The notes under the pieces were generated by a model that saw nothing but the letters and a program-made list of their open reading frames with translations, was not told where the DNA came from and ran no database searches. From Haloarculaceae archaeon (GTDB taxonomy: Archaea; Halobacteriota; Halobacteria; Halobacteriales; Haloarculaceae), in the NCBI GenBank assembly GCA_042217365.1, contig JBDGST010000082.1:1-33472 (forward strand): 33,472 nt of DNA, read 5' to 3'. The position numbers were made by a program, and so were the translations under genes. Below, in pieces: positions 7,566-13,779 of this stretch (its first letter is position 1; every line of letters begins with the position of its first letter).

Positions 7566-7973
7566 GTGACTGAACGCTCCCGCAGATCCGGTGATATATC
7601 AATGAAAGACGCTCGGGCGGGCGATATCGACCTCACGACGATTCGCTTCGAGCCGCCGGGCTACGTCGAACTCGTGTTCTCGACGGTGATACTGTGGGGG
7701 TTCGCCGACGCGGGGTCGACGCTCGTGGCCGTCCGCTCGGTCGGACCGGGCGGCGAGGCGAACCCCTGGATCCGGGTCCTGCTGACCCACCACCCGATGC
7801 TGATGGTCGCGCTGAAGGCGGCGGTCGTGCTCTACGTCGGGGTCGTCCTGCTGGAGTGTCGGCCGGTCGTCGAGCGCGTGCCCTACTGGCGGGGCTGGTT
7901 TCTCGGCATCCTCGCCCTGGGCGTGTGGATCGTCCTGACGAACCTCTACGTCGGGCTCTCGGTGCTCGCCTGA
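7566..7973 (+). CDS. Small integral membrane protein (3-4 TM)
   Basis: Hydrophobic segments VELVFSTVILWGFADAG, MLMVALKAAVVLYVGVVLL, GWFLGILALGVWIVLTNLYVGL. Alternative start ATG 7602. Its TGA stop is the first 3 nt of MITE-like copy 1. Confidence 0.5.
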   Translation: MTERSRRSGDISMKDARAGDIDLTTIRFEPPGYVELVFSTVILWGFADAGSTLVAVRSVGPGGEANPWIRVLLTHHPMLMVALKAAVVLYVGVVLLECRPVVERVPYWRGWFLGILALGVWIVLTNLYVGLSVLA

Positions 7974-8085
7974 TAGTGATTACTGCGAGTCTTTACCGCC
8001 GTGATGGCCCCGATCGGTGATGGTGGCCGCTCAATCGGCGTCTCTCGACACCGTTCCCGAGATCAGTCGCAGTAATCACTATGAG
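7971..8085 (+). mobile_element. MITE-like 110-bp palindromic element, copy 1
   Basis: TGATAGTGATTACTGCGA ... TCGCAGTAATCACTATGA: 16-bp perfect terminal inverted repeat (ATAGTGATTACTGCGA), 18 bp with one mismatch. No coding capacity. 96% identical to copy 2 at 11843-11957. Confidence 0.7.
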
Positions 8086-8170
8086 TTGGGCCGCTCTCGC
8101 CGATCCGTCTGCCGGGCGACGGCCGCCCGTCGAGGTTCGTCAATTCGGCCACCCGGATCCCCGTCCTGCG

Positions 8171-9067
8171 TCACAGCGGCCGGACGACGTCTCCGGGCGG
8201 GTCGTCGAACCGGTCGGGGTGGATCACGCCGGCGAGGTGTTCGAGCGTCTCGACCAGTCGCGGCCCGGGGCGGTTGACGTAGTGGTGACCGTCCACGGCG
8301 ACCGCGCGCCCGGCCGCGACGGCCGGGAGGTCGGTCCACCCCGGCCGGTCTTCGAGCGTCGCGCGCTCGGCCAGCGTCCGGTCGAGGTCGAACCCGCAGG
8401 GAGCGGCGACCAGCACCTCCGGGTCGTACTCGCGGATCTCGGCCCACTCGCGGGGACGCGAGCGCTCGCCGGTGTCCGCGAGGCCGTAGCGCCCGCCCGC
8501 CAGGTCGACGATCTGTGGCACCCAGTGGCCGGCGACCATCGCCGGCTCCAGCCAGTCGAGGACCGCCACGCGGGGCCGGTCGTCGACGGCGCTCGCGCGC
8601 TCGGCCACGGCGTCGACCCGCTCGCGCAGGTCGGCCACGAGGTCGGCGGCCCGGTCCGGTCGGCCGACGGCCGCGCCGATCCGTTCGATATCCGCGTACA
8701 GGTCCTCGAGGCTGTGCGTGTCGAGCGCCAGTACCTCGGCGTCGAGGCCGGTCTCCTCGACCGCCTCGCGAACGAGCACCGAGTCGACGGCACAGACGTC
8801 ACAGACGCCCTGGGAGATGACGAGGTCCGGGTCGGCGCGGGCGAGCGCCTCGCGGTCTATCTCGTAGACGCCGCCCGACGCCTCGGCGTCGGCTACCTGT
8901 TCGTTGATCTCGGCGCTCGACGCGTCGGGGTCGACCCGCGAGCGGTTCATCGACGGGAGCTCGGCCGCCGCCGGCGGGTAGTCACACTCGTGGGAGACGC
9001 CCGCGGGCTCGACGCCGAGGGCGAAACAGATCTCCGTCGCGGAGGGCAGCAGCGAGACGACGCGCAT
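8171..9067 (-). CDS. BtuF/FhuD-like substrate-binding protein (class III periplasmic-binding-protein fold) lacking a signal peptide
   Basis: Begins MRVVSLLPSATEICFALG (classic BtuF/FepB N-terminus) but has no signal peptide or lipobox and no adjacent permease/ATPase genes. Confidence 0.65.
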   Translation of the reverse strand: MRVVSLLPSATEICFALGVEPAGVSHECDYPPAAAELPSMNRSRVDPDASSAEINEQVADAEASGGVYEIDREALARADPDLVISQGVCDVCAVDSVLVREAVEETGLDAEVLALDTHSLEDLYADIERIGAAVGRPDRAADLVADLRERVDAVAERASAVDDRPRVAVLDWLEPAMVAGHWVPQIVDLAGGRYGLADTGERSRPREWAEIREYDPEVLVAAPCGFDLDRTLAERATLEDRPGWTDLPAVAAGRAVAVDGHHYVNRPGPRLVETLEHLAGVIHPDRFDDPPGDVVRPL

Positions 9068-9139
9068 ACCCGGGACAGGAACCGGCGCGACGAAAACCTG
9101 GCCCTCCCGGCGTCCGAGTGAGTCCCGCGCGGACAGCGG

Positions 9140-9766
9140 TCAGCACACCGGCTTCGGGTCGACGCCCATCGCGTCGAGCGCGTCGGCGTACGCGTCGTAG
9201 GCGGCGTCGACGACGGTTTCGGCGGCGTCCCGCGCGGCTTCCCAGTCTTGGTCGCCCTCACAGACCGTTTCGAGGAGCGCGGCGCCCGCCTCGACCTGGT
9301 CGTTCGCGTCCGCCCGCAGGTCCCGCGCGAGGTCCGCCCGGCGCTCGTCGGCCTCGTTGACGAAGAAGTTCACCACCTGCAGCCGCGTCCGGTCACAGAC
9401 CAGGCCGCGGCCGACGAGCGCGCCGGCCCTGGCGGGCGTCCCGCTCGCCGACGCGAGCGCGTCTCCGAGGGGGTCCTCCGGCTCAGTTTCGGGCTCGCCA
9501 TCGAGTTCGGCCGCGACCCGCTCGTAGTGCTCGCGCTCGGTCTCGGCCGCGGCCGCGAACGCCTCCGCCGTCGCGCCGTCCGCGTCGTCGGCCCACGATT
9601 CGAACGCTGCCCGACCGTCGGCGGCGGTCCTGGCGACCGATTCCAGCACCGGGCTCGCCGACAGGTCCGCGCCGGTCGCGGCGATCAGGTACTTGTCCGA
9701 GCCCAGGCGGCCGAGTTCCGTCGCCGTTTCGTCCTCGACCGCCTCGACGAACGCCGGTCCGTCCAT
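9140..9766 (-). CDS. Ferritin-like / rubrerythrin-family protein (tentative)
   Basis: Start taken at MDGPAFVEAV (the track ORF begins at an upstream TTG). ExxH-type motifs (ETEREHYERV, VNEADERRADL) suggest a di-iron four-helix bundle. Identification by eye only; start coordinate +/-1. Confidence 0.4.
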   Translation of the reverse strand: MDGPAFVEAVEDETATELGRLGSDKYLIAATGADLSASPVLESVARTAADGRAAFESWADDADGATAEAFAAAAETEREHYERVAAELDGEPETEPEDPLGDALASASGTPARAGALVGRGLVCDRTRLQVVNFFVNEADERRADLARDLRADANDQVEAGAALLETVCEGDQDWEAARDAAETVVDAAYDAYADALDAMGVDPKPVC

Positions 9767-9932
9767 GCCCACACGTTCGGTCGTCGAGGGCTTAGCTGTG
9801 GGGGAGCGCGAGTCGCGCTGCCCGCGAGTCGCGGCCGATCGGAACCGTGGTGGGTGATTATCAACCCCAATAATCGGGGGCGAGATATATACGCTAGTTT
9901 CACTCGATAGCGTGTAGCGAGAGTCGACAAGC

Positions 9933-10262
9933 ATGCTAGAAGCGCTCGACCCCCACAAAGTCGTCCTGCCGATAATCGCACTGATCGGGCTCGTGCCAGT
10001 GGTACTGCACTACCGGGCGGAGTCCCGGTGGTTCGTCGTCGGCTACCTGCTTTTGGTCGTCGCGACGCTGGCGACGAACCTGGAGAGCCTGTTCCTCGGG
10101 GGGATCCTCAACTACGTGGAACACGTCGTGGGGTTGCTGGGGGCGGGCATCGCGTTCCTCGCGGCGGGGTACGTCCGGCGGCGCCGGGTCGTCGGCGGGG
10201 GCGGCGACCCGGACGAGGAGGTACCGGAGGCGACAGCGACTGACGGCGGGGTGGGTCGATGA
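9933..10262 (+). CDS. Small 3-TM membrane protein, translationally coupled to the downstream transducer
   Basis: 109 aa with three hydrophobic helices. TGA overlaps the transducer ATG (ATGA at 10259-10262). TATA-like GATATATAC at 9884-9892. Confidence 0.55.
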   Translation: MLEALDPHKVVLPIIALIGLVPVVLHYRAESRWFVVGYLLLVVATLATNLESLFLGGILNYVEHVVGLLGAGIAFLAAGYVRRRRVVGGGGDPDEEVPEATATDGGVGR

Positions 10263-11845
10263 ACCCCGTCATCGTCGCCGTCGACTTCCTCGCGGTCGTC
10301 GCGTTCGGCGCCGCGGCCGCGGTCGGCGTCCGGACGTACCTGGACACGACGCTCGAGTCCGGGTTCTGGGCGAACTTCACGTTCGCCGCCGGACTCGGCT
10401 TCCTCTGGACCGGCGTCGTGTTCCTGGAGTGGCTCGGCGTCGCAGGGGCGGTGATGGACGCGCTCGGGACGTCGCTGCTGGCGGTCCTGATCGGCGTCGT
10501 CGCCATCAGTTCGACCGGGACCATCGCCACGGTCGAGGACCTCAAGACGGCCCGGGGAGACGCCCAAAAGCGCCGGCGGGAGGCCGAGAGCCAGCGCGAG
10601 GAAGCCGAAGACGCCAGGGCGAGCGCCGAGGAAGCCAGACAGGAGGCCGAGCGGGCGAAAGCCGAGGCCGAGGAGCTGAACGACCACCTCAGGGAGAAGG
10701 CGGACGCGTTCAGCTCGGCGATGAGCGCCGCGGCGGACGGGGACCTCACCCGGCGGATGGACCCCCAGAGCCGCACGGAGGCGATGACGGCGATCGCCGA
10801 GAGCTTCAACGAGATGATGGCCGAACTCGAACGGACGGTCGCGGGCATCCGCTCGTTCGCCGACGAGGTCGCGACCGCCAGCGAGGAGGCGGCCGCCAGC
10901 GCTGGCGAGTCACGCGACGCCAGCGAGGACGTCAGCGAGTCCGTTCAGACGATCTCGGCGGACGCCGACAAACAGTCCGAGAGCCTCGGCGAGGTCACCT
11001 CCGAGATGCAGAGCCTCTCGGGCGCCATCGAGGAGGTCGCGTCGTCCTCCGACGAGATCGCGTCGACGGCGGGGGACGCGGCCGACCTCGGGGAATCGGG
11101 CCGGGAGGCGGCTACCGACGCGATGGACGACATGGCCGACATTCAGGACAAGTCGACCCAGACCATCGACAGGGTCGAGTCCCTGACCGAGGAGATGGAC
11201 GAGGTCGGCGAGATCGTCTCGCTGATCACCGACATCGCCGAGCAGACGAACATGCTGGCGCTGAACGCCTCGATCGAGGCCGCCCGCGCCGGCGAGGCCG
11301 GCGAGGGGTTCGCCGTCGTCGCAGACGAGATCAAGGGCCTCGCCGGCGAGGCCGCCGAGGCGACCGAGGAGATCGAGGCCATGCTCGCGGACATCCAGGA
11401 GTCGACGGACGCGACAGCCGAGGACGTGCGCGAGATGGACGACCGCGTCTCCTCCGGCGCGGAGACGATCCAGGAGGCCCTCGACGCCATCGACGACATC
11501 GCGGCGAGCGTCGACGAGGTGAACCGGAGCATCCAGGAGATAAACGACGCGACCGACGACCAGGCCAGTTCGACCGAGGAGGTCGCGAGCATGATCGACC
11601 GGGTAGCCGAAACAGCCGACAGCATCAGTTCGGAGTCGAGCAACGTCTCGGCCGCCGCGGAGGAACAGACGGCGTCTCTCTCGGAGGTGTCGAACAGCGT
11701 CGAGTCGCTGAGCGAACGGTCGGTCGCCCTCCGGGACCGCCTCGAACAGTTCACGCTGGACGAGGACGACGCGGCGGTCGTCGGTTCGTCCGCCGACGCC
11801 ACGCCCGTCACGACGGCCGACGGCGGTCGGCCGACCGACGACTGA
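10259..11845 (+). CDS. Methyl-accepting chemotaxis transducer (haloarchaeal Htr-type MCP)
   Basis: Two N-terminal TM helices, HAMP-like region, long methyl-accepting coiled coil with MCP signalling signature EQTNMLALNASIEAARAGEAGEGFAVVADEIKGLA. Stop codon TGA is the first 3 nt of MITE-like copy 2. Confidence 0.85.
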   Translation: MNPVIVAVDFLAVVAFGAAAAVGVRTYLDTTLESGFWANFTFAAGLGFLWTGVVFLEWLGVAGAVMDALGTSLLAVLIGVVAISSTGTIATVEDLKTARGDAQKRRREAESQREEAEDARASAEEARQEAERAKAEAEELNDHLREKADAFSSAMSAAADGDLTRRMDPQSRTEAMTAIAESFNEMMAELERTVAGIRSFADEVATASEEAAASAGESRDASEDVSESVQTISADADKQSESLGEVTSEMQSLSGAIEEVASSSDEIASTAGDAADLGESGREAATDAMDDMADIQDKSTQTIDRVESLTEEMDEVGEIVSLITDIAEQTNMLALNASIEAARAGEAGEGFAVVADEIKGLAGEAAEATEEIEAMLADIQESTDATAEDVREMDDRVSSGAETIQEALDAIDDIAASVDEVNRSIQEINDATDDQASSTEEVASMIDRVAETADSISSESSNVSAAAEEQTASLSEVSNSVESLSERSVALRDRLEQFTLDEDDAAVVGSSADATPVTTADGGRPTDD

Positions 11846-11957
11846 TAGTGATTACTGCGAGTCTTTACCGCCGTGATGGCCCCGATCGGTGATGGTGGCC
11901 GCTAAACCGGCGTCTCTCGACACCCTTCCTGAAATCAGTCGCAGTAATCACTATGAG
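11843..11957 (+). mobile_element. MITE-like 110-bp palindromic element, copy 2
   Basis: Same TIRs as copy 1 and 5 mismatches over 115 bp. Same orientation, 3.87 kb downstream of copy 1. Begins with the TGA stop of the MCP gene and ends ...CACTATGAG. Confidence 0.7.
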
Positions 11958-12011
11958 CGCGCGTTGTGCGCCGACGGGCTCCTTAACCCCGCCGGGCTCC
12001 TACGGGCGTGC

Positions 12012-13208
12012 ATGGCAGACGTCGACCCGCCGAGCGTCACGCCGGCACGGCTCCAGGAGCGGATCGACGCGGGCGACCCCGTCAGGGTGCTCGACCTCCG
12101 CAACCGGGACGAGGTCGAGCGCTGGCGGCTCTCCGGCCCATCGGTGACGGTCTCCCAGAAGCCCAACGCCCGGTTCATCCAGGCCCGCGTCACCGATTCC
12201 GTCGAACAGTTCGTCGCCGACGTCGACGGCGAGGGGCCGATCACCGCGGTCTGTGCCCGCGGCGAGGCGAGCGCCGACGTCGCGGCGACGCTGGTCGAAC
12301 GCGGGTACGACGCCCGCAACCTCGCGGGCGGGATGGAGGCGTGGGCCCGCCTCCTGACGGCGACCGAAATCGCCGACGGGGCGACCGAGAGCGCATCCCC
12401 GGGGGACGCGAGTGGCTCCGGCGCGACGGTCGTCCAGTACCGCCGGCCCGCGAGCGGCTGTCTCGGGTACGCCGTCTACGCCGGCGGCGAGGCGGCGGTC
12501 GTCGACCCGCTACGAGCGTTCGCCGACCGGTACGTCGCCGACGCCCGCGAGCGCGGCGCGTCCATCGAGTACGCGGTCGACACGCACGTCCACGCCGACC
12601 ACCTCAGCGGCGTCCGCGCCCTCGCCGGGGCGACCGGGGCCGAACCGGTCCTACCGGCGGCCGCCGCCGACCGCGGGGCGACGTTCGACGTGACGACCGT
12701 GACCGACGGCGACGCGCTCGCAGTCGGGGACTCGAACCTGACGGCGGTCGCGGCGCCCGGCCACACCACGGGGATGACCGCCTTCGCGGTCGGGGACGTC
12801 CTGCTGACCGGCGACAGCCTCTTCGTCGAGAGCGTCGCCCGGCCGGACCTCGAACGGGGCGCCGACGGCGCCCGCGCCCTCGCGCGGGACCTCTACCGGA
12901 CGCTGACGGAGCGCTTCGCCCGGTTTCCCGACCGAACGCTCGTCGCCCCGGGTCACCACGGCGACGGGGCGACCCCGGACGGCGACGGCGCCTGCGTCGC
13001 CCGGCTGGGCGACCTCCGCGGAACCCGCCCGTTCTCGATGTCCGAAGCGGCGTTCGTCGACTACGTCACCGGCGACATGCCCCCGCGCCCGGCCAACTTC
13101 GAGCGGATAATCGCCGTCAACCTCGGCCGGGAGTCGGTCGACGCCGACGAGGCGTTCGAACTCGAACTCGGCCCGAACAACTGCGCGGCCGCGGCCGCTC
13201 CCGAGTGA
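12012..13208 (+). CDS. Rhodanese-domain / metallo-beta-lactamase-fold fusion protein
   Basis: Start ATG 12012 (MADVDPPSV...). N-terminal rhodanese-like module (LDLRNRDEVERWRL ... AVCARGEAS with active-site Cys) followed by an MBL fold (THVHADHLSG, APGHTTG, GDSLF). The track's 11889 start begins inside the MITE and is unlikely. Confidence 0.75.
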   Translation: MADVDPPSVTPARLQERIDAGDPVRVLDLRNRDEVERWRLSGPSVTVSQKPNARFIQARVTDSVEQFVADVDGEGPITAVCARGEASADVAATLVERGYDARNLAGGMEAWARLLTATEIADGATESASPGDASGSGATVVQYRRPASGCLGYAVYAGGEAAVVDPLRAFADRYVADARERGASIEYAVDTHVHADHLSGVRALAGATGAEPVLPAAAADRGATFDVTTVTDGDALAVGDSNLTAVAAPGHTTGMTAFAVGDVLLTGDSLFVESVARPDLERGADGARALARDLYRTLTERFARFPDRTLVAPGHHGDGATPDGDGACVARLGDLRGTRPFSMSEAAFVDYVTGDMPPRPANFERIIAVNLGRESVDADEAFELELGPNNCAAAAAPE

Positions 13209-13278
13209 TCACCGTAGTTCGGGGGTGTCGGGACTGGCTGAGGGTCGGGGGGTGTCGTCCCGTCGGGATCGCCCGCCT

Positions 13279-13572
13279 TCAGAACGGGAACCGGTCGCGC
13301 AGCCAGTCGCCGATCGACGTCCCCTCGTCCGGGTCGACGGGGCCGACGACGCCGTCCTCCGGGCGGATCACCGTCCGCTCGGCCTCTTCGGTCGCCTCGA
13401 TGAGGCCGTCGGCCTTCAGGTCCGCGAGCGCGTCCTCGAGCGTGTCGATGTCGACGTCGACCTGCGACCGGAGTTCGAAGACGGTCATGCCCTCCTCGCG
13501 CCGGTCGGCCAGCGCGTCGAGCACCGCGACCTCGGTGTCGTCGCGGTCCCGAAACTCCGGCTTCGCTCTCAT
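13279..13572 (-). CDS. Small winged-helix DNA-binding protein (97 aa)
   Basis: Start ATG 13572 (MRAKPEFRDRDDTEVAVLDALADRREEGMTVFELRSQVDVDIDTLEDALADLKADGLI), an HTH plus wing pattern. The longer 153-aa ORF N-terminus is low-complexity. Confidence 0.5.
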   Translation of the reverse strand: MRAKPEFRDRDDTEVAVLDALADRREEGMTVFELRSQVDVDIDTLEDALADLKADGLIEATEEAERTVIRPEDGVVGPVDPDEGTSIGDWLRDRFPF

Positions 13573-13748
13573 AGTCGCCCGTTCGAGCGGACAGGTCTTG
13601 TGCTTATCCCTCGGCGTCGGGCGGTCCCGCGGCCCGGACCGTGCGACTCCGCCGTCGCCGCTCGCCCGCTCCGCTCCGGCCGCGGCTGTCGACTCCACTG
13701 TCTCGACGAACGACGGCCGTAACCGCCCTGCCTCGCGCAAGCAGTACG

Positions 13749-13756
13749 CTTATAGT
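13749..13756 (+). promoter_or_regulatory. TATA-like box (CTTATAGT), ~28 nt upstream of ATG 13780, consistent with a leaderless transcript
   Basis: AT-rich hexamer in otherwise GC-rich DNA at the canonical archaeal -27/-28 spacing from the start codon. Confidence 0.4.
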
Positions 13757-13779
13757 GCGCAGGAGGTCATGACTTGACA

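What the first reader, a model, noticed from the sequence alone, without database searches (positions are those of the whole stretch)
7971..11957. Two copies of a 110-bp MITE-like element, each inserted exactly on the TGA stop codon of the upstream gene and ending in ...CTATGAG
- **Copies:** 7971-8085 and 11843-11957 are 96% identical (5 mismatches).
- **Structure:** 16-bp perfect terminal inverted repeats ATAGTGATTACTGCGA / TCGCAGTAATCACTAT, 18 bp with one mismatch when the flanking TGA/TCA is included. No ORF. Internal direct repeat GTGATGG ... GGTGATGG.
- **Placement:** both copies supply the TGA stop of the preceding gene, a membrane protein in one case and the MCP in the other. This may reflect TGA target preference or duplication, and would rewrite the host C-termini.
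- **RNA consequence:** as RNA each would form a ~50-bp hairpin directly after the stop codon, a potential terminator or stability element.
- **Orientation:** the copies are direct repeats 3.87 kb apart, bracketing a BtuF-like gene, a ferritin-like gene and the sensor-transducer pair.
Basis: seen in the sequence. Interest (0 to 1): 0.6.

Follow-up and report, generated by a model that had tools for sequence, protein, structure and literature searches.

The report
Haloarchaeal MITE that lands on TGA
The two repeats are copies of a 108-bp non-coding mobile element (a MITE related to IS630-family insertion sequences) found across salt-loving archaea; it inserts at C-TGA-G sites and duplicates the TGA, so it often sits on a gene's stop codon without changing the protein.

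Summary
Two 114-bp stretches (7971-8084 and 11843-11956) differ at 5 positions. Each is a 108-bp element with perfect 15/16-bp terminal inverted repeats, flanked by TGA on both sides.

It is a real MITE, not a local duplication.
- A scan of one genome per species found 90 TIR-paired copies (75 with clean flanking repeats) in more than 12 genera of Halobacteria. Dozens occur in some MAGs, and nearly all are the same length.
- 75 of 88 copies carry identical flanking trinucleotides (TGA/TGA 40, TCA/TCA 35). Target consensus is G-n-C|TSA|G.
- An orthologous empty site in Halorubrum shows a clean TGA duplication.
- The termini match 1.12-kb IS630-family insertion sequences (HTH + DDE_3 transposase) from haloarchaeal plasmids. 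These begin TAGTG and are mostly flanked by TSA. No partner with identical ends was found.

The stop-codon placement follows from the target. About 48% of copies sit on a TGA stop, against 33% of comparable non-genic CTSAG sites. The duplication regenerates the stop, so C-termini are not rewritten.

The "50-bp hairpin/terminator" idea fails. Only the TIR stem is conserved, there is no covariation and no T-run, and orientation relative to the gene is random.

Verdict: an ordinary new member of a known kind. The unusual detail is a 3-bp TSA duplication where IS630 elements normally duplicate TA.

The parts
7566..7973 (+). DUF5658 membrane-protein gene; its TGA stop (7971-7973) is the left target-site duplication of copy A
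   Evidence: ORF list, translation, Pfam PF18902 at E=1e-6
7971..7973 (.). Left TGA of the target-site duplication, copy A; also the stop codon of the upstream gene
   Evidence: Sequence; family-wide flanking statistics
7974..8081 (+). MITE copy A, 108 bp, 56.5% G+C in a 69.6% G+C window
   Evidence: matches the family profile at E=4e-31
7974..7988 (+). Left terminal inverted repeat TAGTGATTACTGCGA of copy A, followed by the subterminal TCTTTACCG motif shared with IS630-family IS ends
8067..8081 (-). Right terminal inverted repeat of copy A
8082..8084 (.). Right TGA of the target-site duplication, copy A
8171..9067 (-). Periplasmic binding protein gene (BtuF-like) converging on copy A; a neighbour, not part of the element
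   Evidence: Pfam PF01497 at E=7e-23
10259..11845 (+). Methyl-accepting chemotaxis transducer gene; its TGA stop (11843-11845) is the left target-site duplication of copy B
   Evidence: C-terminal tail aligns to the ends of homologues
11843..11845 (.). Left TGA of the target-site duplication, copy B; also the stop codon
11846..11953 (+). MITE copy B, 108 bp, same orientation as copy A, 5 internal differences
11954..11956 (.). Right TGA of the target-site duplication, copy B

Best explanation
Each copy is a 108-bp miniature inverted-repeat transposable element (MITE).

**How it works.**
- It has no coding capacity. It is moved in trans by the DDE transposase of an IS630-family insertion sequence of a lineage restricted to Halobacteria.
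- The transposase recognises the 15-bp ends (TAGTGATTACTGCGA) and a subterminal TTTACC motif.
- It inserts at the near-palindromic target C|TSA|G with a staggered cut. Gap repair then leaves TGA, or TCA on the other strand, on both sides.

**Why it sits on stop codons.**
- The target contains TGA, and the duplication regenerates it upstream of the element. An insertion on a TGA stop therefore leaves the protein intact.
- Insertions inside genes are lost to selection. Stop codons and intergenic sites are what survive.

**Shown versus inferred.**
- Shown: structure, copy number, flanking duplication, target consensus, an empty site, and relatedness of the ends to IS630-family elements.
- Inferred: which transposase moves it, the 3-nt stagger, and that both window copies are independent, selectively neutral insertions.
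For: **Multicopy and widespread.**
Nearly all are Halobacteria of more than 12 genera.
- 81 of 90 paired copies span exactly 110 bp from TIR to TIR.

**Target duplication.**
- Of 88 copies, 40 have TGA/TGA flanks, 35 have TCA/TCA and 13 have something else.
- Internal orientation is independent of the flank strand (40:35).
- C at -1 in 63 of 75, G at +1 in 52 of 75, G at -3 in 55 of 75.

**Empty site.**
- Hrr. glutamatedens reads ...GGTC TGA [108 bp] TGA GGGG...
- Hrr. sp. F4 and Hrr. aquaticum read ...GGTC TGA GGAG... at the orthologous dehydrogenase stop.

**Related autonomous elements.**
- 1.02-1.13-kb IS in haloarchaeal plasmids carry HTH_33/HTH_32/HTH_29 and DDE_3 ORFs and match NCBIfam transpos_IS630.
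- Their ends begin TAGTG. Flanks are identical TSA in 7 of 10 finished-replicon copies.
- The MITE's left arm is 23/30 identical to their 3' ends, z about 10.

**Stop-codon share.** 36 of 75 insertions fall on predicted TGA stops, 33 are intergenic and 6 intragenic. Background CTSAG sites split 57/114/282. The annotated arsB stop in Hrr. lacusprofundi pHLAC01 is another case.

**Composition.** Element G+C is 55-56% against 69.6% for the window.
Against: - No full-length IS with the exact MITE ends was found in the window, in the fetched loci or in metagenomes. The best IS ends are 22/25 identical.
- IS630-family elements canonically duplicate TA, not three bases (PMC2170065).
- In metagenome contigs the full-length IS have identical flanks in only 13 of 27 cases. 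I attribute this to chimeric assembly across a 1.1-kb repeat, but did not prove it.
- The window's own genome is not in the collections (best MCP homologue 57% identical). Its copy number, its transposase and the empty sites of these two copies are therefore unknown.
- Sequence alone cannot separate a 3-bp stagger (108-bp element) from a 1-bp stagger (110-bp element with A...T ends).
Confidence: 0.88

Rival explanations
1. Local segmental duplication: one 115-bp intergenic sequence was copied 3.9 kb away within this locus, with no transposition involved.
For: Only two copies lie in the 33-kb window. They are in direct orientation and 96% identical.
Against: Homologous copies of the same length and with the same ends occur in over 100 unrelated loci in more than 12 genera. 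They carry site-specific TSA flanks, and a clean empty site exists.
Confidence: 0.01
2. A selected 3'-UTR RNA element (terminator, stability hairpin or sRNA) that is kept after stop codons because it acts on the upstream transcript.
For: - Both window copies follow a stop codon in the same orientation.
- The RNA folds better than shuffles (z -4.2 and -4.5).
- Length is strikingly constant across genera.
- Internal blocks are conserved.
- There is a roughly two-fold excess at stops over non-genic CTSAG sites.
Against: - The consensus fold keeps only the TIR stem, with 0 covarying pairs.
- Both strands fold equally well, as any TIR element would.
- Orientation relative to the upstream gene is 19:17.
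- No T-run or terminator-like site lies in either copy.
- No Rfam family matches.
- 33 of 75 copies are intergenic and away from stops.
Confidence: 0.05
3. The two copies act together as the ends of a composite, MITE-bracketed mobile unit, or as a recombination cassette, that moved the 3.87-kb segment (binding protein, sensor and transducer genes) as a block.
For: - The copies are direct repeats bracketing a functionally coherent gene set.
- Homologues of the transducer pair sit in different neighbourhoods elsewhere.
- In Hrr. salinarum pHAR02 a copy sits exactly at a rearrangement breakpoint.
Against: - Each copy has its own TGA/TGA flanks and lies on the intact stop of a different gene.
- For transposition of a block the outer ends must be in inverted orientation. 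Because each copy's own TIRs are symmetric this is not excluded, but no second copy of the block and no empty site for it was found.
- All flanks are TGA or TCA, so the flanks cannot discriminate.
Confidence: 0.04
4. The element is a 'small mobile repeat' of the kind described in Haloquadratum walsbyi. It would be moved by an unknown mechanism unrelated to IS630 transposases, and the resemblance of its ends to IS630-type IS would be convergent or incidental.
For: - Hqr. walsbyi SMRs are about 108-111 bp with prominent ITRs and strong target preference. Their mobilisation is called enigmatic (PMC3119063).
- No exact-end partner IS was found here.
Against: - End similarity extends 30-45 bp into the IS 3' end, with the same subterminal motif.
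- IS and MITE share the same TSA flanks and the same terminal TAGTG.
Confidence: 0.06

Closest known systems
MITEs of prokaryotic IS630/Tc1-mariner-type elements (for example Sulfolobus SM1 with ISC1048, or cyanobacterial IS630-derived MITEs; recalled from my own knowledge)
   Same: Short and non-coding. The TIRs copy the ends of an IS630-family IS. The target is fixed and AT-cored, and the duplication is part of the target. Copy number is high. Terminal xAGTG resembles Tc1-type ends.
   Different: The duplication is three bases (T-S-A) rather than the canonical TA (PMC2170065). The preferred target is C-TSA-G, so the element coincides with TGA stops. No partner with identical ends has been identified yet.
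Haloarchaeal IS630-family insertion sequences annotated in Hrr. ezzemoulense, Natribaculum breve, Halovenus salina, Natrarchaeobaculum and Halocatena plasmids (loci L127-L131, L120, L121, L216-L218)
   Same: Termini begin TAGTG(A/T)TTA, with TTTACC about 20 bp inside. Flanks are TSA. The MITE's left arm is 23/30 identical to their 3' end.
   Different: They are 1.02-1.13 kb and encode a two-ORF HTH + DDE_3 transposase. Their own two ends are only about 60-70% alike, whereas the MITE's TIRs are perfect.
Haloquadratum walsbyi small mobile repeats HqIRS42/43/55 (Dyall-Smith et al. 2011, PMC3119063)
   Same: About 108-111 bp, with prominent ITRs, high copy number and strong target preference. One insertion is recorded as 'in gene, sequence not affected'. 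Strain-specific insert sizes of 111 equal 108 + 3.
   Different: They are described as causing no target duplication, as targeting palindromes of IS605-type elements and PATEs, and as having ITRs unrelated to any transposon. Sequence relatedness could not be tested here; none is present on plasmid PL47.
Halobacterium salinarum and Haloquadratum MITEs catalogued in ISfinder (MITEHsal1-14, HqIRS32-39; PMC7002104, PMC3119063)
   Same: The same concept and the same definition: termini homologous to a resident transposon class, with a TSD set by that transposase.
   Different: Those belong to the ISH4, ISH8, ISH9 and ISH11 classes with 5-9-bp duplications. Neither paper lists one tied to an IS630-type element.

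Membership tests
MITE (non-autonomous DDE-transposon derivative) | Short and without coding capacity for a transposase | tested here: met
   108 bp. The only ORFs that touch it are read-through artefacts starting at the junction ATG.
MITE (non-autonomous DDE-transposon derivative) | Terminal inverted repeats | tested here: met
   15-bp perfect TIRs (16 with the adjoining A/T) in both copies. They are invariant or nearly so across 34 diverse copies.
MITE (non-autonomous DDE-transposon derivative) | Flanking target-site duplication | tested here: met
   TGA/TGA in 40 and TCA/TCA in 35 of 88 copies. Both window copies are TGA/TGA.
MITE (non-autonomous DDE-transposon derivative) | Many dispersed copies at unrelated loci | tested here: met
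   More than 117 loci with the scan truncated. About 40 loci in one MAG and about 29 in another.
MITE (non-autonomous DDE-transposon derivative) | Presence/absence polymorphism with a precise empty site | tested here: met
   Hrr. glutamatedens is filled; Hrr. sp. F4 and Hrr. aquaticum are empty. Not available for the two window copies.
MITE (non-autonomous DDE-transposon derivative) | Ends homologous to an autonomous IS that makes the same duplication | tested here: met
   IS630-family IS with TAGTG ends and TSA flanks. 23/30 identity to the MITE arm, z about 10. A partner with identical ends was not found.
MITE (non-autonomous DDE-transposon derivative) | Mobilisation in trans by that transposase | not testable with these tools
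   Needs a transposition or binding assay.
IS630 / Tc1-mariner superfamily (for the presumed partner) | Transposase with N-terminal HTH domains and a DDE_3 catalytic domain | tested here: met
   PF13592, PF13565, PF13551 and PF13358. NF033545 transpos_IS630 scores 101.2 bits against a cutoff of 100.
IS630 / Tc1-mariner superfamily (for the presumed partner) | Insertion at TA with a 2-bp TA duplication | tested here: not met
   The flanks are T-S-A on both sides and the central base is copied. The TA norm is taken from PMC2170065. This is a variant within the family, not an exclusion of the transposase.
Intrinsic terminator / structured RNA element | Conserved stem with covariation; T-run after the stem; fixed orientation relative to the transcript | tested here: not met
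   0 covarying pairs and only the TIR stem conserved. No terminator-like site lies in the copies. Orientation is 19:17. No Rfam hit.
Haloquadratum small mobile repeats (HqIRS42/43/55) | About 110 bp with prominent ITRs and high copy number | tested here: met
   108 bp with 15-bp ITRs and dozens of copies per genome. Compared with the description in PMC3119063.
Haloquadratum small mobile repeats (HqIRS42/43/55) | No target duplication; ITRs unrelated to any transposon; insertion into palindromes of IS605-type elements or PATEs | tested here: not met
   Here a TSA duplication is present and the ends resemble IS630-type IS. Whether the published 'no duplication' is itself a misreading could not be tested.

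The most novel reading that the evidence does not exclude
A Halobacteria-specific lineage of IS630-family transposases has shifted from the canonical TA target to C-TSA-G with a 3-bp duplication. This makes the elements and their MITEs 'stop-codon-safe': an insertion on TGA regenerates the stop. The residual two-fold excess at stops may reflect selection for, or targeting of, gene ends. The 'enigmatic' 108-111-bp small mobile repeats of Haloquadratum walsbyi may belong to the same class, which would explain how they are mobilised.
Probability: 0.3. Interest if true: 0.5.

Novelty: new member of a known kind. Interest (0 to 1): 0.33.

Why it matters
**For annotation.**
- The family marks many gene ends in haloarchaeal genomes.
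- It breaks short-read assemblies: many MAG contigs end inside it.
- It creates a spurious junction ATG that can seed false ORFs.

**For mobile-element biology.**
- It documents an IS630-type lineage whose target and duplication are T-S-A rather than TA.
- It shows how a target that contains a stop codon yields neutral insertions in gene-dense, high-GC genomes where TGA is the common stop.
- It gives a testable lead on the unexplained small mobile repeats of Haloquadratum.

**For this locus.** The two direct copies are a substrate for homologous deletion of the 3.87-kb chemotaxis/binding-protein segment. There is no evidence that they regulate it.

Tried and rejected
- **Rfam.** At gathering threshold on the whole window, and at E<=1 on copy A: nothing.
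- **Terminator and promoter consensus scan.** No site inside either copy.
- **Consensus RNA structure.** On 34 diverse copies only the TIR stem is conserved and nothing covaries.
- **Parent IS in held sequence.** Searches with a loosened TIR and with tblastn of the transposase, over the window and the fetched 8-kb genome blocks, found none.
- **Parent IS in metagenomes.** A pattern joining the exact MITE TIR to the conserved IS 3' coding end gave 0 hits.
- **Viral contigs.** A scan for full MITE copies gave 0 hits.
- **Window proteins.** Exact look-up of the window MCP: not on record. Its best homologue is 57% identical, so no empty site for the window copies could be obtained.
- **Empty site for the Hrr. 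salinarum pHAR02 copy.** Homology to other plasmids stops exactly at the TGA, but the right side is rearranged, so this is only a half site.
- **First stop-codon control.** A crude GC3 gene caller overstated the enrichment. It was replaced by a codon-usage caller with 83% coding coverage.
- **Haloquadratum plasmid PL47.** Searched for SMR-like elements of about 108 bp: none.


Full report
**1. The observation**

The repeat is real. The repeat finder reports one two-copy family of 119 nt at 7967-8085 and 11839-11957, 95% identical. An alignment with flanks shows identity running from C7970/C11842 to G8085/G11957, with unrelated sequence outside. The five differences are all internal: 8032, 8035, 8053, 8058 and 8061.

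The 16-mer ATAGTGATTACTGCGA occurs four times in the window, once at each end of each copy. Chance expectation is 0.03 even with three mismatches allowed. ORF 7566-7973 has a DUF5658 domain and ORF 10259-11845 has an MCP signalling domain. Both end on the TGA directly left of a copy. A profile built from the family finds no other copy in the window. The copies have 55-56% G+C in a 69.6% G+C window.

**2. A large family, not a local duplication**

- PLSDB holds an 82% identical copy on Halorubrum salinarum pHAR02.
- A TIR-only search adds a degenerate copy on Hrr. lacusprofundi pHLAC01. It overlaps the annotated stop codon of arsB.
- Apart from 13 single-arm chance hits in bacteria, every locus is from Halobacteria: Halolamina, Halorubrum, Halovenus, Salinibaculum, Salinirussus, Halococcoides, Natrinema, Natronomonas, Halosimplex and unnamed Haloarculaceae, Haloferacaceae and Halobacteriales. 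One MAG contributes about 40 loci and another about 29.
- Of 90 TIR pairs, 81 span exactly 110 bp.

**3. The TGA is a target-site duplication**

I oriented all copies by their internal sequence and read the flanks. They are either ctg|ATAG...CTAT|gag or ctc|ATAG...CTAT|cag. Read as trinucleotides that include the adjoining A and T, 40 of 88 copies are flanked by TGA...TGA, 35 by TCA...TCA and 13 by something else.

The central base is therefore copied, not palindromic. Internal orientation is independent of which strand reads TGA (40:35). With all sites turned to read TGA, the target is G(-3, 55/75) n C(-1, 63/75) | TGA | G(+1, 52/75).

An orthologous comparison settles the point. Hrr. glutamatedens reads ...GGTGGTC TGA [108 bp] TGA GGGGCGGACGGCTC... 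Hrr. sp. F4 reads ...GGTGGTC TGA GGAGCGGACGGCTC..., and Hrr. aquaticum is the same. The TGA is the stop of a D-2-hydroxyacid dehydrogenase that is 83-92% identical between these species.

The element proper is therefore 108 bp, TAGTG...CACTA. In the window it lies at 7974-8081 and 11846-11953.

One caveat remains. The target always supplies T and A, so sequence alone cannot separate two readings:
- a 3-bp stagger with a 108-bp element;
- a 1-bp stagger with a 110-bp element ending A...T.

I favour 3 bp by analogy with TA-flanked IS630/Tc1 ends. This is inference.

**4. The cognate insertion sequences**

Two Natribaculum breve plasmids carry a 1.12-kb element that starts with the same end, TAGTGATTAGTTCGAATCTTTACCG. 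It encodes an HTH_33/HTH_32/HTH_29 ORF and a DDE_3 ORF in adjacent frames.

A tblastn search of PLSDB found relatives at 52-100% identity in 14 records. They come from Natribaculum, Halorubrum, Natrinema, Halovenus, Natrarchaeobaculum, Halococcus, Natronococcus and Halocatena, and most annotated records label them IS630 family transposase. NCBIfam transpos_IS630 matches.

In finished replicons these IS are 1,023-1,133 bp and begin TAGTG(A/T). They have TTTACC about 20 bp inside each end. Seven of ten independent copies have identical TSA flanks, two have TGA/TCA hybrids and one is odd.

The MITE's left arm is 23/30 identical, ungapped, to the 3' ends of the Hrr. ezzemoulense and Natribaculum IS (z about 10). 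Similarity runs about 45 bp inward.

Eighty further IS loci came from hypersaline metagenomes. Their ends are the same kind, at best 22/25 identical to the MITE, but only 13 of 27 have identical flanks. The most likely cause is chimeric short-read assembly across a 1.1-kb repeat, because 108-bp MITEs from similar assemblies do not show the effect. I did not prove this.

No IS with the exact MITE ends was found.

IS630-family elements normally insert at TA and duplicate it (PMC2170065). This lineage differs by one extra central base.

**5. Why stop codons**

I removed each MITE and one TSA copy in silico. I then called genes with a codon-usage model trained on the same loci, which gave 83% coding coverage.

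| Site class | MITE insertions (75) | All other CTSAG sites in the same 545 kb |
|---|---|---|
| On the TGA stop of a predicted gene | 36 | 57 |
| Intergenic | 33 | 114 |
| Intragenic | 6 | 282 |

Among non-intragenic sites the stop share is 0.52 for MITEs against 0.33 for background (odds ratio 2.2, p = 0.008).

Most of the association therefore follows from two things: a target that contains TGA, and loss of intragenic insertions. A roughly two-fold residue remains. It could reflect the extended GC-rich target, or selection against insertions in promoters.

The duplication restores the stop, so proteins are unchanged. The empty and filled Halorubrum alleles end identically. The window transducer's ...ADGGRPTDD tail ends where its homologues end.

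**6. No evidence for an RNA role**

- Each copy folds better than shuffled sequence on both strands. The structure is a 16-19-bp terminal stem around a branched interior.
- Across 34 diverse copies RNAalifold keeps only the 15 TIR pairs, and no pair covaries.
- No terminator-like site lies in either copy.
- No Rfam family matches.
- At stop-codon insertions the element is in the window-like orientation 19 times and inverted 17 times.
- The strict length and the conserved internal blocks are best read as transposase requirements and recent spread.

**7. The bracketed 3.87 kb**

The segment between the copies holds a convergent Peripla_BP_2 gene, small unassigned ORFs and the sensor-transducer pair. 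Homologous transducer pairs elsewhere have different neighbours.

Each copy has its own TGA/TGA flanks, which is uninformative because every insertion carries TGA or TCA. Two independent insertions are the simplest reading. The direct repeats could mediate deletion. Block mobilisation cannot be excluded but has no positive support.

**8. Comparison with what is known, and verdict**

The element meets every sequence-testable criterion for a MITE. It belongs with IS630-family derivatives and departs from that family's TA rule.

Published haloarchaeal MITE catalogues list classes tied to ISH4, ISH8, ISH9 and ISH11 with 5-9-bp duplications (PMC7002104, PMC3119063).

The nearest look-alikes are the Haloquadratum 'small mobile repeats'. 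They are 108-111 bp with strong ITRs, are recorded as making no duplication, and their mobilisation is unexplained. Their strain-specific insert sizes of 111 equal 108 + 3. Whether they are the same class could not be tested.

Overall this is a genuine, widespread and otherwise ordinary MITE. It is a new member of a known kind, with one modestly unusual property: a T-S-A target and duplication that makes it stop-codon-safe.

Noticed in passing
window 8081-8083 and 11953-11955: The right junction CTA|TGA|G creates an ATG in every TGA-type insertion. The mechanical ORFs 8081-9121 (346 aa, no Pfam hit) and 11953-12147 start there. They look like artefacts that could seed false gene calls.
   Followed up: partly
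L001 3548-4004 (Hrr. salinarum pHAR02) versus L122 and L123: Homology to a gene conserved at about 90% on roughly 18 other haloarchaeal plasmids stops exactly at the MITE's TGA, and the rest of that gene is missing. The copy therefore sits at a rearrangement or deletion breakpoint.
   Followed up: partly
L136-L215 (metagenome contigs) versus L120-L131 and L216-L221 (finished plasmids): The full-length IS630-type elements have non-identical TGA/TCA flanks in about half of the metagenome contigs, but in only 2-3 of 10 finished replicons. The cause is either chimeric assembly or frequent recombination between IS copies.
   Followed up: partly
L127 464-520; L121 and L120 IS 5' ends; window 7989-7997: The subterminal TTTACC motif lies 23-28 bp upstream of the transposase ATG in the full-length IS. 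That is the spacing of a haloarchaeal TATA box for a leaderless mRNA. The MITE keeps the motif facing inward, so it might start transcripts that read out of the far end. This is speculative.
   Followed up: no
L003, L005, L034, L065, L066, L075, L082, L088, L092, L096, L101, L109 (contig ends): Many MAG contigs end inside the MITE, with a single TIR within about 30-115 bp of a contig end. The family evidently breaks short-read assemblies.
   Followed up: no
L004 6394-6556 (Halovenus amylolytica): A 163-bp arrangement with an extra degenerate left end 52 bp upstream of a normal copy. It looks like a nested or partially duplicated MITE.
   Followed up: no
L112 3730-4800 and 6096-6116: A solitary right TIR with no left partner lies 1.3 kb from a tyrosine-recombinase-like ORF. 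It may be a truncated copy at the edge of an integrated element.
   Followed up: no
PMC3119063 Tables S5 and S8: Haloquadratum small mobile repeats HqIRS42/43/55 have strain-specific insert sizes of 108-111 bp. One is recorded as 'in gene, sequence not affected'. IS630-type transposons (ISHwa7, HqIRS14) are present with no target duplication recorded. They may be the same class as the element here.
   Followed up: partly
window 12012 onward: The gene downstream of copy B appears to start at ATG 12012, in frame with ORF 11889-13208, 55 bp after the MITE. A TTAA-containing stretch lies about 27 bp upstream. The 12008-13777 ORF I submitted to Pfam is the wrong frame and gave no hit.
   Followed up: no
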